This document shows, in pieces, positions 5,548-57,535 of a stretch of 64,000 nt of DNA; the stretch's first letter is position 1, and each line of letters opens with the position of its first letter. Both the position numbers and the translations under genes were made by a program. Location: assembly GCA_934277615.1 (NCBI GenBank), contig CAKQUV010000002.1, positions 98,855 to 162,854 of the forward strand. Reading direction: 5' to 3'. Under the pieces are notes generated by a model, which worked only from the letters and a program-made list of their open reading frames with translations, was not told the DNA's origin and searched no databases. The stretch comes from an uncultured Clostridia bacterium (lineage in GTDB: Bacteria > Bacillota > Clostridia > Christensenellales > CAG-917).

Positions 5548-6240
5548 TTAATTAATAATTAATAATTACGGAAGGCATAGCCTTATCTGAACGCACACTC
5601 ATTCGTAGTCTACTTATAAATGGTATATGCTTATTCGAAGTTGGAGGCGCAAGGCGCCGACCGCACCGAGCGTCGAGCTTGCGTCACACACAAGGCTTTT
5701 AGCCACAATTGTCACTCGTGCCAATTGCTTGCTTTTTGCCTTGGTGCTCCTTCTTTCCTTCACACAAAAGACTGCGCTTTCATCTTATATATTGCGCTTT
5801 CGTTCGCTTGTCTTTTGTGTGTGGAAGCCTTGTGGGTGCAGTACAAGCGACTGCGCAGTGTTGTTGCGTAGCCGGCGCACAAAGCGAAGTGGCATAATGA
5901 GAGGAATGTCCCTATCTATGCGCGTGCCGTAAGGAGCGAAGCGACGGAATAGCGATTGCTACGAAGTCAATCGCGTCGTGTGTCCCCCTGCGGAGCAGTT
6001 CCGTGGGTTCCCTCAAACGAAGTGCGGAGGGGGAACGGAATATGGGCGCGACGCGTTAAGCAACACATCCGGTGAATGTGTTGTAGCCAAAGCGAACGAG
6101 GCGGATTGCGGTGCGCAAACGCCGAAGTCCAAACACCGTGAGGAAGGGGGGGGAAAAAAAGTTGCATTTAATAGTATTTTTAGAAATACCGGCGTGTCCG
6201 GAAAGATGGGGTTATTGCATTTAAGGAGTTACGACGCACT
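5548..6240 (+). repeat. mosaic hairpin-rich intergenic element, copy 1 of 3 (~0.7 kb)
   Basis: Starts with a TTAATTAATAATTAATAATT leader 20 nt after the upstream stop. Long blocks are near-identical to 56936-57535 (same strand) and 33361-33887 (reverse complement). Examples: GCTTATTCGAAGTTGGAGGCGCAAGGCGCC, GCGCGACGCGTTAAGCAACACAT...GAATGTGTTGTAGCCAAAGCGAACGAGGCGGATTGCGGTGCGCAAACGCCGAAGT, CCGGCGTGTCCGGAAAG. Confidence 0.75.
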
Positions 6241-10015: not shown

Positions 10016-10031
10016 TTGTAAAACAGTTAAT

Positions 10032-10060
10032 AAAAAAAGCACACTTCGGTGTGCTTTTTT
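10032..10060. terminator. bidirectional intrinsic terminator
   Basis: A7 - GCACAC ttcg GTGTGC - T6. Confidence 0.8.
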
Positions 10061-10064
10061 ATTA

Positions 10065-10170
10065 GTGATATCGTGCTTCGCACGGTGATATTTGCGCAAA
10101 GCGCAAGTGATATTTTTTGCTTACGCAAAAAGTGATATTGCACCTGCGGTGCAGTTATGGAATATTCCAT
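10065..10170 (-). repeat. hairpin/ATATCAC array A (4 units plus GGAATATTCC palindrome)
   Basis: On the minus strand: ATGGAATATTCCAT, then TGCACCgcaGGTGCA-ATATCAC, TTTTTGCgtaaGCAAAAA-ATATCAC, TTGCGCtttGCGCAA-ATATCAC, CGTGCgaaGCACG-ATATCAC, then the terminator. Same architecture as 20599-20707 and 23741-23863. Confidence 0.8.
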
Positions 10171-10411
10171 TAGTGCACGCAGTGCGCCTAACGTTGCTCG
10201 TAGGCAGGCGGAGCCGTAGTTTATAACTCCACGAAGAATAATTGTGGGCATCAACTGTCTATCCGAGCAACCGCCGAGCCGCCTCAAGGTTGCGAGACCT
10301 TACGCAAAAAGCAAGGCTCCGCTTGCTTTTTTGTAGGACGTTTGCGCCTAAATATGTGTCAAGTTATCTCGTAGAGATAAGTGACACGTGTTTAGCATTC
10401 GGCGCAAGCTG

Positions 10412-12326: not shown

Positions 12327-12417
12327 CGGAAGTAGTAGGGTATTGCGCGTTAAGTGCCGTGCGAACGTGGAGTGTCGGCGGACGAAGGGTTTTCCCGCGG
12401 TGCAATGCTCACTCCAG
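12327..12417 (+). promoter_or_regulatory. THF (tetrahydrofolate) riboswitch, THF-I / folT-motif class
   Basis: GGAAGUAGUAGGGUAUUGCGCGUUAAGUGCCGUGCGAACGUGGAGUGUCGGCGGACGAAGGGUUUUCCCGCGGUGCAAUGCUCACUCC. It shares the recalled hallmark blocks GUAG, GCGUUAAGUG, GUGUCG, ACGAAG, GCGGUG.AAU and a closing CUCC/GGA P1. It sits directly upstream of folC. Confidence 0.75.
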
Positions 12418-12470
12418 ACTTCACATATTACCGAAAGGTTTTTTGCGAGTACTTCCCGAGGAGGTGCTTT

Positions 12471-13790
12471 TTGTTTTATCAAGAGGCGATTGACTACATC
12501 AAGAATATAGAAAGAGCGGGCTCCGATTACGGCTTGGAGCGTATGCGAGAGCTTTTGGCGTTGCTGGGCAATCCCGACGACAAACTCAAATTCGTGCACG
12601 TTGCAGGCACCAACGGCAAAGGCTCCGTTACGGCGTATCTCACAAGTGCGCTAAAAGAGGCAGGTTATAGGGTGGGCACTTACAATTCTCCATCCGTTTT
12701 CCGATACAACGAAAGATGGCTCATAGACGGCAATCCCCTGTGCGACGAGGACGTGGCGCGCTATATGACGATTGTAAGAGAGTGCATAGAGAGCGAAAAA
12801 CAGCTGCGCTCTGCGTTCGGCATTGGCGATTTCAATCCCACCGCATTCGAGATAGAAACAGCGGTTGCAATGCTTGCCTTTTTCGATAAGGAATGCGATA
12901 TATGCGTTCTCGAAGTCGGACTTGGCGGAAGATGGGACGCGACAAATGCAATTTCTCAAAAGGAACTTGCCGTTATAACTCCAATAGGTCTTGACCATTG
13001 CGCGATTTTGGGCGATACGCTCGGCAAAATTGCAAGCGAAAAAGCGGCGATAATCAAGAAAGACTGCGTAACCGCAGAGCAGTGCGACGAGGTGATGAAA
13101 GAGATCTATCACCCATACGTATTTGACGAAAACTGCAAGAGAATCGACATAAATTCCAACGTAATTTTGTGCAAAAAAGCAAAACTTATCGAGCAGAATA
13201 TAGACGGGCAAACGTTTGAATACGACGGCAAAACATACCATATTTCAATGCTAGGCGCACACCAACTAGTCAACGCGTCTATAGCGATTTGCGCCCTTCA
13301 AACGCTTGGCAAAAAGCATTGGAATATCCCCGATGAGGCTATCAAGAAAGGGCTTGCCGATACCGTTTGGCACGCACGCTTCGAAGTGGTTAAAAACGCA
13401 AAAGAGAGGTTTAATATATCAATTCCGCAAGATAAAACGCTTGTTTTTGACGGCGCGCACAATCCGCACGGCGCAGCAACGCTTGCCAACGCAATCAAAG
13501 ATTTGTTTCCTGACAGACGCGTACATTTGGTTGTGGGCATGCTCAAAGACAAGGACGTGGACGGCGTATGCGCGATTGTCTGTCCGCTCGCAAAAAAGGT
13601 GAGCGTCGTTACTCCCACATCCCCAAGAGCAATGGACAAAAGCAACCTTATCAAAATCGCGAGCAAGTATTGCGAAAATTGCGACGAGCAAGACAGTGTA
13701 AAGGTCGGAGTGAAAAACGCGCTTGACGGAGATTGCGACGTCGTGATACTTTGCGGTTCGCTCACGCTTTTTGCCGATATGAAAAAGTAA
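12471..13790 (+). CDS. folC: bifunctional folylpolyglutamate synthase / dihydrofolate synthase
   Basis: VAGTNGKGS P-loop and Mur-ligase-like layout. The preferred start is TTG 12471, 6 nt after GGAGG (12460-12464). The track start 12354 lies inside the riboswitch. Confidence 0.85.
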   Translation: MFYQEAIDYIKNIERAGSDYGLERMRELLALLGNPDDKLKFVHVAGTNGKGSVTAYLTSALKEAGYRVGTYNSPSVFRYNERWLIDGNPLCDEDVARYMTIVRECIESEKQLRSAFGIGDFNPTAFEIETAVAMLAFFDKECDICVLEVGLGGRWDATNAISQKELAVITPIGLDHCAILGDTLGKIASEKAAIIKKDCVTAEQCDEVMKEIYHPYVFDENCKRIDINSNVILCKKAKLIEQNIDGQTFEYDGKTYHISMLGAHQLVNASIAICALQTLGKKHWNIPDEAIKKGLADTVWHARFEVVKNAKERFNISIPQDKTLVFDGAHNPHGAATLANAIKDLFPDRRVHLVVGMLKDKDVDGVCAIVCPLAKKVSVVTPTSPRAMDKSNLIKIASKYCENCDEQDSVKVGVKNALDGDCDVVILCGSLTLFADMKK

Positions 13791-13820
13791 CAAGTAAATA
13801 TAAAAACACAAATAACAAAA

Positions 13821-14060
13821 AATTAATAACAAAAAATTAATAATTAATAATTGCGGGTGGGCGTTGCCCACACCCGAGCAAAAGTCGTCGCTGTGGCAAA
13901 GATAACTCACAAGTTCATTGTCTACTGCCACGCTAGCCTTATTGCTCTGCTACCGCGCAACCGATATACGATCAGTATAGCATGGACAAGAATTCGTACC
14001 ACAGTTCCGCTATATCGCTTGCTTGGTGTATTTGTGGAGTATTCCGCAGCTAGAAAATTT
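13821..14060 (+). repeat. mosaic hairpin modules filling the folC-folE spacer
   Basis: AATTAATAAC..AATTAATAATTAATAATT leader, then GGGTGGGCGTTGCCCACACCC (same hairpin as 56970-56990) and a degenerate GTGGAGTATTCCGC palindrome. Confidence 0.5.
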
Positions 14061-19393: not shown

Positions 19394-20572
19394 ATGGATA
19401 TCGAGACTTTGAGCGACAAACTGCAATACGTCGCGCTCTATCTTGCCGTGGCAATCGTGGCGGCGTTTATTGTGGTCGGGCTTCTCGTTTGGTTCAAGAA
19501 ACGCGACAAATTCGCCGATTTCAAAAAATACGCCGTCGGCATCGTAACGGGCTTTGCCGTAACAATGGTGGTCGTGTTTGCTTACGTCAAGTTTCAATGC
19601 AATCTGGGCGATATGCAAGCCAAACTCTTTTACCCCATTCTCGCAACGCTCATAACTGTGGTCGCAGGCGCAATCGCAATGCTCGTAAGCTCGCTTTTCA
19701 GCAACAAAGCGACAAAGATTTCCTTTATCGTAACGGCATTAGCGGTGCTTGGATGTTTTATCGCCACAATGGTGCTTATGGCGCAATACTACGGCGATAT
19801 TGCGGAGGATTATCCGTCCGCAAACCTCGTTGGCATGATTGTATCCGCAGTCGTGTTTATGGTGATAATGGTCGTTATGTGGTTTGTAGGGGACAAGCGC
19901 AAGATGAGCGACACTCGCTCTATCGTTTATGGCGCAATCTCAATCGCACTTTCCTTCGCGCTCTCGTACGCACGCATTTTCAAACTTCCTCAAGGCGGCT
20001 CCGTAACGTTCGCAAGCCTCCTTCCGCTCATGGTGTATTGCTGCATGTTCGGCACGAGAAGAGGTCTTATCGTATGCACGATATACGGCGTTTTACAAGC
20101 GCTACAAGACCCGTACATAATTCACCCGATGCAATTCTTGCTCGATTATCCTCTTGCATTCGGTCTTATCGGCGTAAGCGGCATATTTATGGAGAAGGGC
20201 GTATTCAAGGATAAAAAAGTCGTTGCATTCCTGCTCGGCGGCGTTATCGCAGTCGTATTGAGATACGCATGCCACGTATGCTCCGGCGTCTTTGCGTTTG
20301 CCGACTATGCCGACCTCGATAAGTACAACACCGCAATCGCATACAGCATGGCGTACAACTCCTTCGCTTTTGTGGATATGCTCATCGCTCTCGTCGCAGG
20401 CAGCGTCTTGTTTGCTTCCAAATCCTTTACGGCGCTTATGCAAAAGTCAAGCGACTTGAACAAGGCGGCGGAAGTCGCACCCTTGCAAGAGGTTGAGGAT
20501 GACGAACCCGTTGACGAAATCGACCGTCAAATCATCGAAAGCCAAAAAGCAGACGATGAAAGTCAAAATTAA
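19394..20572 (+). CDS. thiT: ECF-type thiamine transporter S-component ThiT fused to an extra N-terminal multi-TM region
   Basis: The C-terminal ~200 aa match the ThiT/YuaJ pattern (ISIALSFALSYARIFKLPQGGSVTFASLLPLM...). About 190 extra N-terminal residues carry ~5 TM helices. Acidic C-tail. GGAGGA SD. TPP riboswitch lies upstream. Confidence 0.8.
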   Translation: MDIETLSDKLQYVALYLAVAIVAAFIVVGLLVWFKKRDKFADFKKYAVGIVTGFAVTMVVVFAYVKFQCNLGDMQAKLFYPILATLITVVAGAIAMLVSSLFSNKATKISFIVTALAVLGCFIATMVLMAQYYGDIAEDYPSANLVGMIVSAVVFMVIMVVMWFVGDKRKMSDTRSIVYGAISIALSFALSYARIFKLPQGGSVTFASLLPLMVYCCMFGTRRGLIVCTIYGVLQALQDPYIIHPMQFLLDYPLAFGLIGVSGIFMEKGVFKDKKVVAFLLGGVIAVVLRYACHVCSGVFAFADYADLDKYNTAIAYSMAYNSFAFVDMLIALVAGSVLFASKSFTALMQKSSDLNKAAEVAPLQEVEDDEPVDEIDRQIIESQKADDESQN

Positions 20573-20598
20573 TAGTTAATAATTATTAATTAATAATT

Positions 20599-20707
20599 GT
20601 GGAATATTCCACAACTTGCGCCTATGGCGCAAATATCACTTTTTGCGTAAGCAAAAAATATCACTTGTGCGTAGCACAAATATCACTGCACGAAGTGCAA
20701 TATCACT
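20599..20707 (+). repeat. hairpin/ATATCAC array B (4 units plus GGAATATTCC palindrome)
   Basis: GTGGAATATTCCAC, then TTGCGCCtatGGCGCAA-ATATCAC(20633), TTTTGCgtaaGCAAAA-ATATCAC(20658), TGTGCgtaGCACA-ATATCAC(20680), GCACgaaGTGC-ATATCAC(20700). Lies between the thiT stop (plus an AT-rich leader) and the terminator. Confidence 0.85.
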
Positions 20708-20730
20708 GTTCCATTTTAAATAAACAAATC

Positions 20731-20758
20731 AAAAAGCACGGGCGAGCCGTGCTTTTTT
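20731..20758. terminator. bidirectional intrinsic terminator
   Basis: AAAAA-GCACGG gcgag CCGTGC-TTTTTT. Confidence 0.8.
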
Positions 20759-22508: not shown

Positions 22509-23444
22509 ATGGAAGTCAGGATACCTTCGGGTTTCAAAATAGGTCATTACGACGACGAATACACGGGCGTAACCGTCGTTCTTTCAGAGAGCGGCGCAAC
22601 GGGCGGCGTTGACTGTCGCGGCGGCGCCCCCGGCACGAGAGAAACCGACCTTTTGCACAATGAAAAAATGATGCAAAAAGTCAACGCAATCGTGCTTTCG
22701 GGAGGCTCGGCATACGGGCTTGCCTCCACGTGCGGAGTTATGGAATACTTGCGTCAAAAGGGCGTTGGATACAAGAGCCTCGGCAAAATCGTGCCTATCG
22801 TTTGCGGTGCGGTTTTATACGACCTCAATCAAAAGGAATATCACTATCCAACCGCAGAATACGGACTTAAAGCCTGCGAAAATGCTTCAAAAACCACCGT
22901 TTTTGGCAATATCGGCGCAGGTAAGGGCGCAACCGTCGGCAAAATCCGCGGCATCAAAAACGCATGCAAGAGCGGTATCGGCGCGGCAACGGAAAAGGTG
23001 CTGGGCGTTACCGTAACGGCAATCGTCGCAGTCAACGCAATGGGCGATATCGTCGATGATGAGGGAAAAATCATCGCAGGCGCAAAAGGCAAAAACGGAG
23101 AGTTTATCGACACCGAAAAATGCCTTGCCGAGGGCGACGTGCTCAAACTTGCGTTTGGCACCAACACCACGATAGGATGTATTCTCACCGACGCAAAACT
23201 AGACAAGGTGGACGTCAATAGGCTTGCAAGCATTTCCCACAACGGACTTGCAAGAGCAATCCGTCCCGTGCATACCATGTACGACGGCGATACAATGTTC
23301 TGCCTTGCAAGCGGCAAACGTCCTGTGGCAAATCTTGCAGTGCTTCAATCGGCAGTCGTCCGCGCCACACAGCGCGCCATTCAAAACGCCGTTGCCGCAA
23401 CAACAAATTATGATGTGATATACGATGATGACGAAGAGGAGTAA
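22509..23444 (+). CDS. P1 (S58, DmpA/BapA-like) family aminopeptidase
   Basis: GVTVVL...GGVDCRGGAPGTRETDLL, SGGSAYGL and the self-processing GTNTTIG motif. Confidence 0.8.
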   Translation: MEVRIPSGFKIGHYDDEYTGVTVVLSESGATGGVDCRGGAPGTRETDLLHNEKMMQKVNAIVLSGGSAYGLASTCGVMEYLRQKGVGYKSLGKIVPIVCGAVLYDLNQKEYHYPTAEYGLKACENASKTTVFGNIGAGKGATVGKIRGIKNACKSGIGAATEKVLGVTVTAIVAVNAMGDIVDDEGKIIAGAKGKNGEFIDTEKCLAEGDVLKLAFGTNTTIGCILTDAKLDKVDVNRLASISHNGLARAIRPVHTMYDGDTMFCLASGKRPVANLAVLQSAVVRATQRAIQNAVAATTNYDVIYDDDEEE

Positions 23445-23740
23445 AAATTAATAATTGATGGTGGAACACCCACATCCGAACGAAAATAAATATGGAATAT
23501 TCCATATGTCATTCCGCCAATGTCGAGTGAGAAAACTTGCTTGCAAGGGTTTCCGAACGACGATATTTTTGAAGTGATTGAAATTGCATTTATGCAAAAA
23601 AAGCCATAGGCTTGCGCTATTAGCGCACAATCACTGTGGGAACGAAGTGACCGTGGGAATCTAGCGTAGCGAAATGCGCCTGCGGCTAGATTGCCACGCT
23701 TGCGCTCGCAATGACGAAAGGGTGGGATACCCACACCCGA
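23445..23740 (+). repeat. mosaic hairpin modules (AT-rich leader, GTGG..CCAC hairpins, GGAATATTCC palindrome)
   Basis: AAATTAATAATT directly after the stop, then GGTGGAACACCCAC, ATATGGAATATTCCATAT (23490-23507), AAGCCataGGCTT, GCGCtattaGCGC and GGGTGGGATACCCACACCC. The same module types occur at 5548, 13821, 20569 and 56936. Confidence 0.55.
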
Positions 23741-23863
23741 ATGGAATAATCCACAACTGCGGCAACGCCGCAATATCACTTTTTGCGAAAGCAAAAAATA
23801 TCACTTGCGCAAAGCGCAAATATCACTGCGCCCACGGCGCAATATCACTCGCACGAAGTGCGA
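23741..23863 (+). repeat. hairpin/ATATCAC array C (5 hairpins, 4 linkers)
   Basis: ATGGAATAATCCAC, then TGCGGCaacGCCGCA-ATATCAC(23773), TTTTGCgaaaGCAAAA-ATATCAC(23798), TTGCGCaaaGCGCAA-ATATCAC(23820), TGCGCCcacGGCGCA-ATATCAC(23842), TCGCACgaaGTGCGA. Ends 9 nt before the ATG of the radical SAM gene. Confidence 0.85.
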
Positions 23864-23872
23864 ACATACATC

Positions 23873-33360: not shown

Positions 33361-33887
33361 TCCTCAAAATACAATAACCCCCTCTCTCCGGACACGCCGG
33401 CATTTCTCGAAACAACTATTAAATGCAATTTTCCCTTTCCTCAAGGTGTTTGGACTTCGGCGTTTGCGCACCGCAATCCGCCTCGTTCGCTTTGGCTACG
33501 ACACATTCACCGAATGTGTCGCTTAACGCGTCGCGCCCATATTCCGTTCCCCCTCTGCGCTTTGCTTGAGGGAACCCACGACGACCGCGCAGCGGGGGAC
33601 AACTCGACGCGATTGACTTCGTAACAATCGCTATTCCGTCGCTACGCTCCTTACGGTACTCGCATAGAAAAGTATCGTTCTCTTGTTATGCCACTTCGCC
33701 TGCGTGGCGGCTGCGCAACAAAATGCCACGCATTCTCGTACTATTCATCAAGCTCGACGCTCGGTGCGGTCGGCGCCTTGCGCCTCCAACTTCGAATAAG
33801 CACATTCCGTTAATAAGTACTCTCCGAATGAGTGTGCGTTTGGATAAGGCTACACCTTCCACAATTATTAATTATTAATTATTAATT
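33361..33887 (-). repeat. mosaic hairpin-rich intergenic element, copy 2 of 3 (inverted, lacks the ~180-nt internal module)
   Basis: The reverse complement aligns with 5548-6240 and 56936-57535, including the AT-rich leader (33863-33887). The module GCGTCACACACAAGGC...GTACAAGCGACTGCGC is missing. Confidence 0.75.
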
Positions 33888-43011: not shown

Positions 43012-44679
43012 GTGGAATTTTTTGAAAAGGCATTCGCTTGGCTTGCAGACGTATCGTCCAAATTGCCTAAAATAGATTTTCAAATATTTTTCATCGTCGT
43101 AGCGGCGGTGCTTTTCGGGTTGGGTATCGTATTTGCGTTTACGTATCTCGGCTCAAAGAGTTTCAAACTTATCAAGGCTAGCAAGAAAATTCAAAAATAC
43201 CTCGAAGGCGTCGACGCCGTCGATGACGACAACGTGAGCGATTTTACAGCGCATTGTTTCTCTGCAAAAGCGCCTCAAGCGTTGCGCGACAGTTGGGTGC
43301 AATACCTCGGCGTGCGCTTTGGATATCCCAGCGATATCGTCAGCGACAAGAACGTCTATGACAAGACGGTCAAAAAGAACAAGGACTATCGCGCGGGCAT
43401 CTACATTTGCGTATCGCTTATTTTGCTTGCGGTGTTTGCGTTTTGGGGATACGGCACTCTCGATAAGACAGCCATCGGCGCAGTGCATTTCGTGAGTCTT
43501 GTGATTATCGGATTGATGTATCTTTTCCTCATCCTCATCAATCGTGCTCAGAACAAGCGTTGCCTCGAAGCTTTTGACGCAATGCAAGAAGACCTTGACG
43601 CAAAGGTGAATTTGCAAGTCGAGAAAAACTATGCCACGGATTCCTCTCCGCTTTCCGAACTTGCGGGTATGGTGGAAGAGATTATCGCACGCAACACGTC
43701 CAAGGCAATCGACATCGACGAAGAGCCCGAAGAGGTGGCGGAGCCCACTCCCATCGAGGCTTTGATAGAACAAGAAGAGAAAGGCGAGAGCGTTGAGGAA
43801 GAAACTTCTGTCGACGAGGCAGACGAGCCGGTTTCCGAGGATAAGGAAGAAGAGTCTGTGGATGAAGAAGCGGAACCCACGGAAGAAACTTCCGTAGAAG
43901 AAGCCGAAGAGGTTGAAGAAACCCCCGTTGACGCTGTCGAAGAGAATACGGAAGAGGTTGCGGACGAGGAAACGGACGAAGTTGTCGAAACCGAGCCTGT
44001 CGAAGAAGCCGTAAAAGAAACCTCGGAGGAAACCGAAGAAGAAAAGGCTGACGACGAAAACGTTGAAGAAACCATAGAGGAAAGCACCGAAGAGGAAGGA
44101 CTCCAAGAAGCGCAAGAAGACGCTGCGGAAGAGAACGCCGAAGAACAACCTCTCAAAGAAGAACAAGAGGATACTCTTGACGAGGCAGAGGCTCAAGAGG
44201 AAGTTGAAGCCGAGGAAATCGAGGAAGAAGTCCGAGAGGATGAAAACTCGGTCGAAACGAAAGAAGAGCCTATTGAAGAAATCGCAGACGATGACGTTCA
44301 GGAGGACGTAACAGACGAGTCCGAAGAGGTTGAAGAACAATCCGAAGAAGAAGTAGCCGACGAAGGCGACGCAGAAGCCGAAGAAGTCGAGGACGATTCA
44401 CAAGAGGACAACTCAGAAGAGAAAGCCGAAGAGGAGCCCGAGGTCGTTTACGTCGTAGACGGCGAGGATGAGGACGAAGAAGTTGTCAAACCTGCAAAAC
44501 TTGTCAAACTTCCCAATCTCGTTGATTATATGCTGACAAAGAATATGCCGAAGGCTATGAAGATTCAAATCGCAGGAATGCTCATCGGCACGTACAAGAA
44601 GTTTGAAAACAGCAAGGAAGACCGCAAAATCGTTGTGCAATGTCTGACGAAAGTTATGCGCGACTTGCAAGCAAACTGA
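43012..44679 (+). CDS. membrane-anchored, extremely acidic protein with conserved C-terminal domain (paralog 1)
   Basis: GTG 43012 lies 5 nt after GGAGGA. Three N-terminal TM helices, ~260 aa of E/D-rich low complexity, then a ~75-aa C-terminal domain shared with 44759-45511. Confidence 0.65.
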   Translation: MEFFEKAFAWLADVSSKLPKIDFQIFFIVVAAVLFGLGIVFAFTYLGSKSFKLIKASKKIQKYLEGVDAVDDDNVSDFTAHCFSAKAPQALRDSWVQYLGVRFGYPSDIVSDKNVYDKTVKKNKDYRAGIYICVSLILLAVFAFWGYGTLDKTAIGAVHFVSLVIIGLMYLFLILINRAQNKRCLEAFDAMQEDLDAKVNLQVEKNYATDSSPLSELAGMVEEIIARNTSKAIDIDEEPEEVAEPTPIEALIEQEEKGESVEEETSVDEADEPVSEDKEEESVDEEAEPTEETSVEEAEEVEETPVDAVEENTEEVADEETDEVVETEPVEEAVKETSEETEEEKADDENVEETIEESTEEEGLQEAQEDAAEENAEEQPLKEEQEDTLDEAEAQEEVEAEEIEEEVREDENSVETKEEPIEEIADDDVQEDVTDESEEVEEQSEEEVADEGDAEAEEVEDDSQEDNSEEKAEEEPEVVYVVDGEDEDEEVVKPAKLVKLPNLVDYMLTKNMPKAMKIQIAGMLIGTYKKFENSKEDRKIVVQCLTKVMRDLQAN

Positions 44680-44758
44680 TTTAAATATGTAAAAAAAAGT
44701 TCAGTCGGGGGACTTTACGAGCCGACGTTTCAATAAAATATAAGGTGAGGATTGAAAG

Positions 44759-45511
44759 ATGTTTGGAAAGAAGAAAAAACAGGCAAAACTTGAACAAGAG
44801 CAACGCGAAAAAGAACAACGCGAGTTGGAACTTGCTCAACAACAAGCGGCGCAAAGAGCGGCAGAGGCTGCAAAAGAGGAAGAAAACAACGGCAAGATTT
44901 ATCTTGAAAGCGAAATCATCGACGACGATGAGGACGACAATTCTCTTCCCAAAGAGTATGAGTCTATCGCTTATATTTTGAAACAAGAAACGGGCGAAGA
45001 TTTGCTTGCGCAACCCGTTGACGACGACGTGGAAGAAACTCCGCTCCAAGAAGTCAAAGAAGAAGTTGCGCCTGTCGAAGAAAAGGCTGAAGAGAAGGTT
45101 GAAGAACCCGTAGCGCAAGAGCCTGTAAAAGAAGAGGCGCCGACCGAAGAGACAGCCGAAGAAGATGTTGAAGAGACCGAAGAAGAGGCAGAAGAAGAAG
45201 TCGAGGAAGAGGCTGACAAAGAGGAAGCTCAAGAAAAGACCGAAATCGCGCCGCAAGAACAAAAAGAAGAAGTGGTGTATATCGTGGACGGTCCGAGCGA
45301 GGACGACGACGAGATTGTTAAACCTGCAAAACTTGTCAAACTCCCCAATCTTGTGGACTACATGCTCTCTCAAAACATGTCCAAACAAATGAAGATAAAC
45401 ATTGCGACGTTGCTCCTTTCCACGTACAACAAGTACAAGGATATCCCTGCGGAAAAGAAGATTATCATCCAATGTATGGCAAAGGTTATGAGATCTCTCA
45501 TTCAAGGCTGA
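44759..45511 (+). CDS. soluble acidic protein with the same conserved C-terminal domain (paralog 2)
   Basis: GGTGAGGA SD. K/E/Q-rich N-terminus, acidic middle, and a C-terminus VVYIVDG..DDDEIVKPAKLVKLPNLVDYMLSQNM.K.MKI.IA..L..TY.K......KKIIIQC..KVMR.L. Confidence 0.65.
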   Translation: MFGKKKKQAKLEQEQREKEQRELELAQQQAAQRAAEAAKEEENNGKIYLESEIIDDDEDDNSLPKEYESIAYILKQETGEDLLAQPVDDDVEETPLQEVKEEVAPVEEKAEEKVEEPVAQEPVKEEAPTEETAEEDVEETEEEAEEEVEEEADKEEAQEKTEIAPQEQKEEVVYIVDGPSEDDDEIVKPAKLVKLPNLVDYMLSQNMSKQMKINIATLLLSTYNKYKDIPAEKKIIIQCMAKVMRSLIQG

Positions 45512-55981: not shown

Positions 55982-56935
55982 ATGTTCGTAAAATTTTTGT
56001 CAAGTGCAATCAGATTGAGCGCGGTGTTCCTTTATGGTTCTACGGGAGAAATCATCGTGGAAAAGGGCGGACATCTCAACCTCGGTATTCCCGGCATTAT
56101 GAGCGTCAGTGCGGCGGTAAGCGTGCTTGCGGAATATTCTCTCATCAAGACCATGGGGACAAGTGCTCCCGCGCTTTTGGTGCTTATACCGATAATAGTT
56201 GCGTTTTTAGTCGGCGCGATTATGGGCTTCCTTTACAGTTTTCTCACCGTTACGCTTCATTGCAATCAAAACGTTGTTGGTCTTGCAATGACCACTCTCG
56301 GCGTAGGCCTTGCGGGCTACTATATGACGGGTGCGGGCGCAAAGATAATGATCGTCGCAAGAGCGAGCAAGTATTTTATCAAATTGTTCGACGTTCAGGG
56401 CGGCGGTGCGTTCTCGCAAATATTCCTCTCACACGGTGCGTTGGTGTATCTTGCAATTATAATCGCAGTCGTTGCTCAAATCGTACTTAGCAAGACGAGA
56501 ACGGGACTCAACCTCCGTGCCGTGGGTGAAAATCCCGCAACGGCGGACGCGGCGGGCATCGACGTCACCAAATACAAATACGTGTCATCTTGCGTAGGTT
56601 GCGGTATTTCGGGCTTGGGCGGTCTCTTCTGTGTTATGGACTATATGGGCGGAAACTGGGAATATGTCCTTGAAGGCTTTGGATGGCTCTCTATCGCACT
56701 CGTTATCTTCACGCTTTGGAAACCCGCATTGTCCATACTCGGATCAATAATTTTTGCGGGTTTGTACATCGCATCGTCGTACATAAAAGGCATTTCGTTT
56801 GCGCAAATCGAGCTTATCAAGCTTTTGCCGTACGTCGTCACAATCCTCGTGCTCGTCATCACGAGTATGATAAACAAGAGAGAAGCACAACCGCCGGCGG
56901 CACTCGGCATGTCTTACTTCCGAGAAGAGAGATAA
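55982..56935 (+). CDS. ABC transporter permease (BMP-type importer)
   Basis: Multi-TM protein that starts 1 nt after the upstream stop. Confidence 0.85.
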   Translation: MFVKFLSSAIRLSAVFLYGSTGEIIVEKGGHLNLGIPGIMSVSAAVSVLAEYSLIKTMGTSAPALLVLIPIIVAFLVGAIMGFLYSFLTVTLHCNQNVVGLAMTTLGVGLAGYYMTGAGAKIMIVARASKYFIKLFDVQGGGAFSQIFLSHGALVYLAIIIAVVAQIVLSKTRTGLNLRAVGENPATADAAGIDVTKYKYVSSCVGCGISGLGGLFCVMDYMGGNWEYVLEGFGWLSIALVIFTLWKPALSILGSIIFAGLYIASSYIKGISFAQIELIKLLPYVVTILVLVITSMINKREAQPPAALGMSYFREER

Positions 56936-57535
56936 AAATTAATAATTAATAATTAATAATTAATAATTGCAAGTGGGCGTTGCCCACACCTAAATGAAGC
57001 TTATTCGAGGCGTTCTTATTAACGGAATGTGCTTATTCGAAGTTCGAGTCGCAAGGCGCCGAGCGAATAAGCGCCGAGCTTGCGTCACACACAAGGCTTT
57101 TAGCCACAATTGTCACTTGTGCCAATTGCTTGCTTTTTGCCTTGGTGCTCCTTCTTTCCTTCACACAAAAGACTGCGCTTTCATCTTATATAACCCACTA
57201 TCGTTCGCTTGTCTTTTGTATGTGGAAGCCTTGTGGGTGCAGTACAAGCGACTGCGCCGTGTTGTTGCCTAGCTGGCGCACAAAGCGCAGTGGCATAACA
57301 AGGGGGCGATACCTATTTATGCGAGTGCCGTTGTCTCCCCCGCGAGCGACGAATAATATTGTAGAGAATTATCCCTAACCGAGTGGTCGGGCGCGACGCG
57401 TTAAGCAACACATTCGGTGAATGTGTTGTAGCCAAAGCGAACGAGGCGGATTGCGGTGCGCAAACGCCGAAGTGGACATGCCGGCGTGTCCGGAAAGAGG
57501 GGGCACATTGCATTAAAGAAGTTACGATGCACCCG
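56936..57535 (+). repeat. mosaic hairpin-rich intergenic element, copy 3 of 3 (~0.6 kb)
   Basis: (AATTAATAATT)n leader right after the stop, then GTGGGCGTTGCCCAC, followed by modules ~95% identical to 5628-5897 and 6046-6130. Confidence 0.75.

What the first reader, a model, noticed from the sequence alone, without database searches (positions are those of the whole stretch)
20599..20707. Arrays of covarying GC hairpins separated by an invariant AATATCACT linker (three copies, always sense to the flanking genes)
The loci are 20599-20707 (+), 23741-23863 (+) and 10065-10170 (-). All three share one architecture: a GGAATATTCC-type palindrome, then 4-5 short hairpins, each followed by the constant single-stranded word (A)ATATCAC(T). 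Linker spacing is 25/22/20-22 nt.

Hairpin order is conserved but stem sequences differ with compensatory changes. Unit 1 is TGCGCC/GGCGCA vs TGCGGC/GCCGCA vs TGCACC/GGTGCA. Unit 3 is TGTGC/GCACA vs TTGCGC/GCGCAA. Loops are GNRA-like or triloops (GTAA, GAAA, GTA, GAA).

Arrays A and B lie between a stop codon and the intrinsic terminator of membrane-protein genes (the 10412 gene and thiT), so they would be transcribed as 3' UTR in the AUAUCACU sense. Array C lies between a peptidase gene and the radical SAM gene.

Covariation plus consistent transcriptional orientation argues for a structured RNA. Candidates are a protein or sRNA sponge presenting four AUAUCACU sites, or a 3' UTR stabiliser. 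An orientation-specific DNA element with iteron-like spacing of about two helical turns is also possible. I know of no described motif with this design.
Basis: seen in the sequence. Interest (0 to 1): 0.78.

Follow-up and report, generated by a model that had tools for sequence, protein, structure and literature searches.

The report
Gut-1-type hairpin repeat arrays
The three hairpin arrays are real, but they are borderline copies of an already catalogued, uncharacterised motif (Rfam Gut-1), and they behave like a dispersed, gain-and-loss intergenic repeat of gut Clostridia rather than a regulator of the neighbouring genes.

Summary
There are three arrays of 4-5 short GC hairpins joined by an invariant (A)ATATCAC(T) linker, at the stated coordinates.

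The novelty claim does not hold. All three match Rfam RF01706 (Gut-1 RNA motif, Weinberg 2010) at 46.3, 49.9 and 42.0 bits. Sister copies elsewhere pass the cut-off.

The family is widespread in gut and rumen Clostridia MAGs and is multi-copy, with at least 10 copies per assembly. Its units are modular: 119 units are built from about 29 stems. In Oscillospirales it forms a bipartite inverted element, of which Rfam models one arm.

At all three window sites, close relatives with conserved gene order lack the array. One relative carries a different repeat at site A, and one carries the array in the opposite orientation at site B. No transposase or other recurrent gene lies nearby.

Best reading: a REP/BIME/BOX-like mosaic, probably mobile, intergenic repeat whose hairpins matter in single-stranded form. 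Whether that form is RNA or DNA is unresolved. Any UTR effect on thiT or the radical SAM gene is probably incidental.

The parts
20565..20599 (+). AT-rich (TTAATAA)n..TTG module that starts at the thiT stop codon. It is a repeat module that precedes array A.
   Evidence: Other copies lie at 5549, 13818, 23442, 33861 (inverted) and 56921. It is 95% conserved together with the head and units 1-2 in non-orthologous L117. It is absent from the empty site in L249/L251.
20597..20614 (.). Head palindrome TTGTGGAATATTCCACAA of array A (core TGGAATATTCCA at 20600-20611).
20616..20707 (+). Array A: four hairpins (20616-32, 20640-57, 20665-79, 20687-99), each followed by ATATCAC (20633, 20658, 20680, 20700).
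   Evidence: It matches Gut-1 at 46.3 bits on the minus strand, 20628-20708. An orthologous copy is in L264. The array is absent in L247, L294, L249 and L251.
20731..20757 (.). Bidirectional intrinsic terminator shared by thiT (+) and the thiamine pyrophosphokinase gene (-). It is host sequence, not part of the repeat.
   Evidence: It is conserved in relatives that lack the array.
23742..23864 (+). Array C: head TGGAATAATCCA, four linker-terminated hairpins and a fifth hairpin (23849-23863). The whole block is an insert relative to L247/L294.
   Evidence: Gut-1 at 49.9 bits on the minus strand. L247 and L294 read ..cacacccgaa|catatttattcaa..ATG where the window reads ..cacacccgaa|TGGAAT...gtgcgaa|catacatcATG. 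In L249/L296 the two genes overlap with no spacer.
23493..23504 (.). A fourth TGGAATATTCCA palindrome that has no array.
23501..23665 (.). A 165-nt companion module between the extra head and array C.
   Evidence: It is 87% identical to L031 but inverted there relative to the array. It also sits next to a head in L280.
10065..10169 (-). Array B: head at 10158-10169, four hairpins, and linkers at 10132, 10107, 10085 and 10065.
   Evidence: Gut-1 at 42.0 bits on the plus strand. Orthologous site: L271/L280 have the same orientation, L262 the opposite orientation, and L254 has no array.
10171..10300 (-). Companion repeat module ('module X') upstream of the array B head.
   Evidence: The same ~110-nt sequence precedes the heads in L258, L275, L278 and L284.
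10027..10057 (.). Bidirectional terminator-like hairpin between the aldolase gene and array B.
   Evidence: Read from the sequence. The simple scan did not list it.

Best explanation
The arrays are copies of a dispersed, modular, non-coding repeat family of gut Clostridia. This is the family Rfam lists as the 'Gut-1 RNA motif'. It behaves like the REP/BIME elements of enterobacteria or the BOX elements of pneumococci.

A unit is a short GC-rich hairpin plus the 7-9-nt word (A)ATATCAC(T). Units are strung into arrays and combined with other modules: a palindromic GGAATATTCC head, an AT-rich stop-codon module, and larger repeats. The arrays are gained, lost, inverted and reshuffled in intergenic DNA, typically next to terminator hairpins or just upstream of start codons.

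Shown: family identity, multi-copy dispersal, modular reshuffling, presence/absence at orthologous sites, and lack of a linked protein gene.

Inferred:
- The hairpins are kept because the element acts or spreads in single-stranded form, with the ATATCAC strand favoured, judging from the GNA/GNNA loops.
- Spread depends on a trans-acting enzyme or on recombination at the linkers or heads.
- Once inserted in a UTR, the hairpins may incidentally stabilise or insulate the host mRNA.

The arrays are not dedicated regulators of thiT, the membrane protein gene or the radical SAM gene.
For: Family identity:
- Gut-1 matches at E = 2e-8 to 5e-7 for all three arrays.
- Sister copies score above the cut-off: L102 66.8 bits, L117 52.7, and six more at 50.4-52.3.
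- The seed alignment of the original paper contains the same bipartite GUGAUAU/AUAUCAC elements.

Dispersal:
About 100 hold hairpin arrays, nearly all from gut or rumen Clostridia MAGs.
- Two metagenome assemblies each carry at least 10 copies on different contigs.

Modularity:
- 31 distinct arrays hold 119 units built from about 29 stems in varying order.
- The partner modules vary, and one is inverted between genomes.

Gain and loss at orthologous sites with conserved synteny:
- Site A: array in the window and L264, a different ~390-nt repeat in L247/L294, and nothing in L249/L251.
- Site C: a 123-nt insert bounded by direct CGAA, absent in L247/L294, while the genes overlap in L249/L296.
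- Site B: absent in L254, opposite orientation in L262.
- There are no arrays in 69 kb of relatives' orthologous DNA.

Other points:
- L117 shares 95% identity over about 110 nt with array A while the flanks are unrelated.
- No recurrent neighbouring gene and no Y1 transposase was found.
- Adjacent arms are always inverted in one arrangement, 27 of 27, and the bipartite element has a fixed polarity after gene or tRNA 3' ends, 21 of 23.
Against: - No mobilising enzyme, autonomous parent element or convincing target-site duplication was found. There is one 4-bp CGAA case, which could equally be a microhomology deletion.
- The hairpins are strongly maintained, and loops are biased to GNA/GNNA on one strand. 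This implies selection on a single-stranded form and is equally expected of a functional RNA.
- Some copies are conserved at orthologous positions across species: L017/L040/L062 after a tRNA, and L264 for array A.
- Many type II arrays end 30-90 nt before a co-directional start codon, which could reflect a 5' UTR function.
- Gain versus loss cannot be polarised without a phylogeny.
Confidence: 0.6

Rival explanations
1. The array is a cis-acting structured RNA in UTRs. Transcribed in the AUAUCACU sense with the neighbouring mRNA, the tandem stable hairpins would block exonucleases or set processing sites at the AU-rich linkers. That would stabilise or insulate the transcript, or tune translation when the array sits just upstream of a start codon. 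This partly overlaps the main explanation, as a domesticated or incidental effect.
For: - Array A lies between the thiT stop codon and its terminator.
- Array C ends 8 nt before the radical SAM ATG, so it must lie in that mRNA's leader.
- About a dozen type II arrays end 30-94 nt before a co-directional start codon.
- GNRA-like and GNA loops with C-G closing pairs predominate in this sense.
- There is strong covariation.
Against: - Close relatives with the same genes lack the arrays, or carry other repeats in their place.
- The flanking genes are unrelated housekeeping genes.
- In the bipartite form one arm is always antisense to the other, and many elements sit after a terminator and before the next promoter.
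- G-U pairs are almost absent: 1 cell, and GT 22 against AC 19. The terminator control shows this test is weak.
Confidence: 0.2
2. The array is a trans-acting small RNA or a sponge, which is the Rfam annotation and the first reader's idea. An independent transcript would present four copies of a single-stranded word to titrate a protein or an sRNA.
For: - Rfam types Gut-1 as an sRNA, and Weinberg 2010 rated it 'certainly RNA' on covariation.
- The linker is invariant while the stems vary.
- In the Rfam sense the RNA fold is 9 kcal/mol more stable, through G-U pairs that extend the stems.
Against: - No promoter was found by the simple sigma-70 scan at array B, and only weak 9-of-12 matches lie in the AT-rich module upstream of array A.
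- The family has many copies per genome, with reshuffled units, both orientations, and presence/absence between close relatives.
- Loop bias points to the strand opposite to Rfam's.
- Linker variants (GUUAUAU, GUGGUAU, GUGAAAU) do not preserve the G-U stem extension.
Confidence: 0.08
3. The array is a double-stranded DNA protein-binding site (iteron, centromere or recombination-site like). The ATATCAC words, spaced about two helical turns apart, and the palindromic head would be bound by a DNA-binding protein.
For: - Spacing is regular at 20-25 bp.
- The two arms are inverted and symmetric.
- The head palindrome sits at module junctions, and a flanking module is inverted between genomes.
- Several L arms abut a -35 box.
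Against: - A duplex-binding model does not explain why every spacer is a hairpin kept by compensatory changes, nor the strand-biased loops.
- Spacing varies from 16 to 27 bp across the family.
- There is no adjacent rep, par or recombinase gene.
Confidence: 0.07

Closest known systems
Gut-1 RNA motif (Rfam RF01706; Weinberg et al. 2010, Genome Biol 11:R31, PMC2864571)
   Same: Both are tandem short hairpins with variable, covarying stems, separated by GUGAUAU/GUGAAAU words. Both come from gut Clostridia-type sequence. Sister arrays with the same head pass the Rfam cut-off, and the seed alignment contains identical linkers and the bipartite form.
   Different: The window copies score 42-49.9 bits, below the 50-bit cut-off. 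They carry a GGAATATTCC head instead of the GCGAATATA centre and lack a second arm. The Rfam model covers three hairpins of one arm only and is oriented opposite to the loop-favoured strand. The published description gives no function and no statement that it is a multi-copy repeat.
REP/BIME elements of Enterobacteria and Pseudomonas (with RAYT transposases)
   Same: Both are short GC-rich palindromes in many intergenic copies, mostly at gene 3' ends. Both are assembled with other motifs into mosaics and found in both orientations. Both vary between close relatives, and the hairpin matters in single-stranded form.
   Different: Here the conserved part is the linker and the stems are highly variable, which is the reverse of REP. 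There is no GTAG-type tetranucleotide and no RAYT was found. Units are in tandem in one orientation within an arm rather than alternating.
BOX elements of Streptococcus pneumoniae (boxA-boxB(n)-boxC); also RUP, SPRITE and Correia elements
   Same: All have a modular head, a variable number of repeated hairpin-forming units and a tail. All are dispersed in intergenic regions of a Gram-positive genome, often co-transcribed with neighbours, and have no coding capacity.
   Different: There is no sequence similarity. BOX units are 45-nt near-identical copies, not 13-19-nt hairpins with different stems. No terminal inverted repeat or target duplication is established here.
IS200/IS605-type single-strand 'peel and paste' ends
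   Same: Both have a strand-specific hairpin next to a short conserved word and lack obvious terminal inverted repeats. Loop types (C-GNA-G) are known, from my own knowledge of the literature and not tested here, to give very stable DNA mini-hairpins.
   Different: No TnpA or other HUH gene lies near any copy. The arrays hold 4-5 units, not one hairpin per end. No conserved target word lies at the left boundary.

Membership tests
Rfam Gut-1 (RF01706) | Covariance-model score at or above the curated gathering score of 50 bits | tested here: not met
   A scores 46.3, C 49.9 and B 42.0 bits, with E-values from 2e-8 to 5e-7. Sister arrays of the same architecture score 50.4-66.8, so the window copies are borderline or divergent members.
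Rfam Gut-1 (RF01706) | Three tandem hairpins with covarying stems separated by GUGA(A/U)AU words | tested here: met
   The alignments to the model cover positions 1-77 in full. 16 of 25 pairs show double changes in 26 arrays.
Rfam Gut-1 (RF01706) | Expressed as a small non-coding RNA in the modelled orientation | not testable with these tools
   No expression data are available. Loop bias favours the opposite strand, while the RNA fold energy favours the modelled strand.
REP/BIME | Many dispersed intergenic copies of short palindromes combined into mosaics | tested here: met
   At least 10 copies per assembly. All copies examined are intergenic. The partner modules and their orientation vary.
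REP/BIME | Conserved hairpin sequence with a 5' GTAG-like tetranucleotide and a cognate RAYT gene in the genome | tested here: inconclusive
   The stems are variable and no GTAG is present. Whole genomes could not be searched.
MITE | Terminal inverted repeats, a target-site duplication and a related autonomous IS | tested here: inconclusive
   The bipartite form has inverted arms. One filled/empty pair shows direct CGAA. The window copies have no second arm, and no parent IS was found.
Plasmid-type iterons | Identical direct repeats bound as duplex DNA next to a rep gene or origin | tested here: not met
   The spacers are variable hairpins. The arrays are chromosomal, multi-copy and flanked by housekeeping genes.
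Type III toxin-antitoxin RNA repeats (ToxI-like) | Near-identical tandem repeats directly upstream of an endoribonuclease toxin gene | tested here: not met
   The units differ in sequence, and the downstream genes are diverse or absent.

The most novel reading that the evidence does not exclude
The arrays are built and reshuffled unit by unit by a so far unknown strand-specific recombination or transposition system. That system would recognise the ATATCAC word next to a DNA hairpin, with the GGAATATTCC palindrome as a joining site. This would make 'Gut-1' a new class of cassette-like modular mobile DNA in gut Clostridia rather than an RNA gene. The bipartite form could be a mobile terminator or insulator that targets the 3' ends of tRNA and protein genes.
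Probability: 0.15. Interest if true: 0.75.

Novelty: new member of a known kind. Interest (0 to 1): 0.38.

Why it matters
This finding corrects the record more than it opens a new field. A motif that has sat in Rfam since 2010 as a gut-only 'sRNA' with no function turns out to be one arm of a larger, oriented, bipartite element. It belongs to a multi-copy mosaic repeat family spread over Christensenellales and Oscillospirales.

That affects genome annotation, because these copies fall just under the Rfam threshold. It affects how covariation is read, because modular repeats give compensatory patterns without being RNA genes. It also bears on strain typing and assembly of gut Clostridia.

If the units prove to be moved by a linker-specific single-strand enzyme, it would be a REP/RAYT-like system in Firmicutes with an unusual 'constant linker, variable hairpin' logic.

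Tried and rejected
- CRISPR-like array: rejected. There are no spacers and the units are 13-19-nt hairpins.
- ToxI-type antitoxin: rejected. The units are not identical and there is no toxin gene.
- Plasmid iterons or an origin: rejected. The arrays are chromosomal, multi-copy and lack a rep gene.
- Head palindrome as a DnaA-box or Rex/CRP-like operator: only a resemblance from memory (L101 has TTATCCACA). Not tested and not used.
- Promoter inside the bipartite centre (TANAAT): the best -35 candidates lie 20 nt away, so it was not pursued.
- Neighbour-gene clustering of 407 ORFs within 3 kb of arrays: only generic ABC ATPases recur, plus a small protein in 4 loci (judged from its sequence to be four-helix-bundle-like; no family search was run). 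No candidate partner emerged.
- Genes lying between separated arms: ordinary housekeeping genes.
- tblastn with IS200 and IS608 TnpA: no hits.
- Viral contig scan: 120 pattern matches, but only 2-3 are real arrays, so there is no phage link.
- Same-strain contigs: identical sequence, hence uninformative.
- Wobble-pair test for RNA versus DNA (with the terminator control): GT is about equal to AC in the arrays, but the control shows only 43 against 26, so the test is not decisive.
- Pairing of S-arm with L-arm linkers into stacked four-way junctions: possible on paper. However, the window copies lack a second arm, and linker variants were not tested for covariation.
- Rfam search of the ~650-nt companion repeat: no match.

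Full report
**1. What is in the sequence**

Each starts with a short palindrome: TGGAATATTCCA at 20600-20611 and 10158-10169, and TGGAATAATCCA at 23742-23753. After CAAC or TAAC come four hairpins of 13-18 nt, each followed by ATATCAC, with spacing 25/22/20-22. Array C has a fifth hairpin.

ATATCAC occurs 22 times in the window against 4.9 expected, and no shuffle of 100 reaches that. Twelve of the 22 lie in the three arrays. The head palindrome gives 8 matches against 0.59 expected, and there is a fourth copy at 23493-23504 with no array. Array A folds into exactly the five local hairpins with z-scores of -4.6 to -6.6, on both strands and with RNA or DNA parameters.

**2. It is a catalogued motif**

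A permissive Rfam scan of array A gives one strong match: Gut-1 (RF01706), 46.3 bits, E = 2e-8, full model length, on the minus strand. Array C gives 49.9 bits and array B 42.0 bits, again on the GUGAUAU strand. The curated cut-off is 50 bits, which is why the default scan of the window showed only a THF riboswitch.

Arrays with the same head elsewhere pass the cut-off. L102 scores 66.8 bits and L117 52.7 bits. Six more hits among 16 metagenome loci score 50.4-52.3.

Gut-1 was described by Weinberg et al. 2010 (PMC2864571) from 43 human-gut sequences. It was rated 'certainly RNA' on covariation and typed as a non-coding RNA. The only comment was that it is detected only in human-gut environmental sequence and in no sequenced organism. 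The authors' seed alignment contains GUGAUAU linkers and, in the flanks, the AUAUCAC arrays too. The claim that no described motif has this design is therefore wrong, although nothing is known about function.

**3. Distribution and full anatomy**

About 100 of these loci hold real hairpin arrays. Nearly all are gut or rumen MAGs of Oscillospiraceae, Acutalibacteraceae, Christensenellales and unclassified Clostridia. Only 2-3 of 120 pattern matches in viral contigs are real arrays.

In Oscillospirales the usual form is a bipartite element of about 230-260 nt. Read in the direction of the upstream gene, it consists of:

- a long outer hairpin, often a genuine terminator;
- CAGTTATAT;
- a 'short arm' of 3-4 hairpins joined by GTGATAT (this arm is what Rfam models);
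- a centre, GTTnnGGCGAATATA;
- a 'long arm' of 3-4 hairpins joined by ATATCAC.

Adjacent arms are always in this inverted arrangement (27 of 27). The short arm faces the 3' end of an upstream gene or tRNA in 21 of 23 cases, and 8 of those 21 are tRNAs. The outer TTATATTCGCC is complementary to the centre GGCGAATATAA, and the two covary: TCTATTCGCC with GCGAATAGA, AAATAAATCC with GGATTTATTT, and GATATGAACC with GGTTCATATC. The long arm often abuts a sigma-70-type promoter, for example ATATCACTTGACT-17-TATAAT.

The window copies are the Christensenellales variant. They have one arm, homologous to the long arm (position 2 is always TTTT(T)GC..GCAAAA(A)). The GGAATATTCC palindrome sits where the bipartite form has its centre.

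**4. Which strand, RNA or DNA**

Among 231 distinct hairpins, loops read on the ATATCAC strand are strongly biased. The counts are C(GAA)G 36, C(AAA)G 17, C(GTA)G 16, C(GCA)G 15, and GCAA/GTAA/GAAA 27. The complementary forms are rare: TTT 4, TAC 2, TGC 1. G.A mismatches number 31 against 7 C.T. In the Christensenellales set, GNA/GNNA-type loops number 49 against 11 of the complementary type, while AAA (13) and TTT (11) are balanced and flip within one stem type. In the bipartite form the favoured strand differs between the two arms.

Against that, as RNA the Rfam strand folds 9 kcal/mol better. U.G, A-U and U.G pairs can extend each stem into the linker. Linker variants do not preserve this extension.

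Stems change almost only from one Watson-Crick pair to another. In 26 arrays, 16 of 25 pairs have double changes and only one cell is G-U. Across the larger set there are 22 G.T against 19 A.C in 1421 pairs. A control set of 125 terminator-like hairpins from the same loci gave 43 against 26, so this test is too weak to decide.

From general knowledge, C-GNA-G triloops are unusually stable as DNA, and loops such as GATA and GTTA break the GNRA rule for RNA. I treat this as a lead, not a result. RNA versus single-stranded DNA remains open.

**5. Behaviour at orthologous sites**

Using the thiamine pyrophosphokinase and aldolase proteins as anchors, I recovered the same gene neighbourhood from relatives at 64-95% protein identity.

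- Site A (thiT stop codon to terminator). The window and L264 have the AT-rich module, head and array. L247 and L294 (90% identity) have the AT-rich module followed by a different ~390-nt repeat, and then the same flank and terminator. L249 and L251 (80% and 71%) have nothing there.
- Site C. In L249 and L296 the S58 peptidase stop overlaps the radical SAM start. L294 has the AT-rich module, a CGGAATATTCCG head and companion modules but no array. L247 has the companion modules without the array. The window has a 123-nt head-plus-array block inserted between ..cacacccgaa and cata.., bounded by direct CGAA.
- Site B. L254 (91%) has two plain terminators and no array. L271 and L280 have arrays in the window's orientation but with other units and other companion modules. 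L262 has an array in the opposite orientation between the same terminators.

No arrays or heads occur in 69 kb of relatives' orthologous DNA. Conversely, L117 shares 95% identity with array A over about 110 nt (AT-rich module, head, units 1-2) while the flanks are unrelated.

**6. Modularity and copy number**

A metagenome scan for head plus first linker returned 37 loci, of which about 30 are real arrays and 6 are unrelated false positives. Two assemblies each carry at least 10 copies on different contigs of equal coverage.

Thirty-one distinct arrays contain 119 units drawn from about 29 stems. The units show positional preferences: TCGCAC at position 1 in 8 of 8, TTTTTGC at position 2 in 11 of 12, and TTGCGC at position 3 in 8 of 9. 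The order is otherwise shuffled and the loops vary. The three 'covarying' versions of unit 1 in the window (GCGCC, GCGGC, GCACC) are each recurrent unit types found elsewhere.

The modules that precede heads also vary. They include the AT-rich all-frame-stop module; a ~110-nt module (window 10171-10300, also in L258, L275, L278 and L284); GTGACCGTGGGAATCCAGCGTAGCGAA; and the 3' end of a ~650-nt non-coding repeat (L263, L279). A 165-nt module next to array C is inverted in L031.

**7. No linked gene**

All-against-all clustering of 407 ORFs within 3 kb of arrays gave no recurrent partner. The largest cluster is generic ABC ATPases, in 8 loci. A small protein follows the long arm in 4 loci; I judged it four-helix-bundle-like from its sequence alone and ran no family search on it. 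Genes lying between separated arms are housekeeping genes.

**8. Interpretation**

The combination of features is the profile of a mosaic intergenic repeat family of the REP/BIME or BOX kind. Those features are many dispersed copies, mosaic modules, both orientations, unit reshuffling, near-identical copies at unrelated sites, and gain or loss between close relatives with conserved synteny. It is not the profile of a gene-specific riboregulator or a single sRNA gene.

Maintained hairpins and strand-biased loops show that a single-stranded form matters. That could be for spread (recognition of hairpin plus linker by a trans-acting enzyme) or for an effect in transcripts (an exonuclease barrier or an insulator).

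B sits beyond a terminator-like hairpin of the 10412 gene. These positions are best seen as tolerated insertion sites. I put 0.6 on this reading, 0.2 on a primarily cis-RNA function (which partly overlaps), and under 0.1 each on a trans sRNA or sponge and on a duplex protein-binding array.

The unusual aspects are the 'constant linker, variable hairpin' logic, the fixed polarity of the bipartite form after tRNA and protein-gene terminators, and the covarying long-range complement. These keep a 0.15 chance that a new kind of modular mobile DNA system lies behind it.

**9. Verdict**

The feature is real. It is a borderline member of a known but uncharacterised family. Interest is moderate to low (0.38), mainly for re-interpreting Rfam Gut-1 as one arm of a dispersed repeat.

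Noticed in passing
window 5549-6222, 33367-33881 (inverted), 56934-57503; also L247/L294 site A, L263, L279: A ~500-650-nt non-coding repeat is present in three copies at 82-99% identity. It is itself mosaic: one ~150-nt block is present in two copies only. It starts with the AT-rich module plus a YGGAAG..TTATCCRAACG hairpin and ends with GCCGGCGTGTCCGGAAAGAGGGGG..GGAGTTACGACGCAC. It has no ORF over 118 aa and no Rfam match at E<0.01. In relatives it occupies the thiT site instead of array A, and in L263 and L279 a head plus array follows its 3' end.
   Followed up: partly
window 5549, 13818-13874, 20565-20599, 23442-23482, 33837-33885 (inverted), 56921-56990: An AT-rich (TTAATAA)n..TTG module lies at or just after stop codons in at least two copies (the thiT and S58 peptidase stops). 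By its 7-nt period it should give stop codons in all frames on both strands, though I did not check this frame by frame. It is always followed by a hairpin and appears to be the 5' module of several repeat types.
   Followed up: partly
window 23501-23665 vs L031: A 165-nt intergenic module is 87% identical between two Christensenella-type genomes but inverted relative to the adjacent array. It is flanked by the palindromic head on one side, which raises the possibility of site-specific inversion.
   Followed up: partly
L006, L008, L021, L096 (and L100): A small conserved ORF (MSDSILRDKSKDFAK..QLLRSGTSIGAN..) lies directly after the long arm of bipartite elements in several species. From the sequence alone it looks like the four-helix-bundle / 23S rRNA intervening-sequence protein type. 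No family search was run.
   Followed up: no
window 12329-12422 (+): A THF riboswitch (62.1 bits) lies upstream of the 12354-13790 ORF region. It is conserved next to site B in L262, L271 and L280.
   Followed up: no
window 23872 (radical SAM/SPASM gene start): The start codon has no recognisable Shine-Dalgarno sequence, and a hairpin ends 8 nt upstream. In relatives without the insert, the gene is translationally coupled to the S58 peptidase gene (ATGA overlap). The insertion therefore broke a coupled pair.
   Followed up: partly
window 43797-45460: This is a long region of imperfect GAAGAA-rich repeats. It was not examined further.
   Followed up: no
L102 1900-2190: An entire head-plus-array element is tandemly duplicated with a 154-nt period. 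The contig is labelled Butyrivibrio crossotus but carries Christensenella-type repeats, so mis-binning is possible.
   Followed up: no
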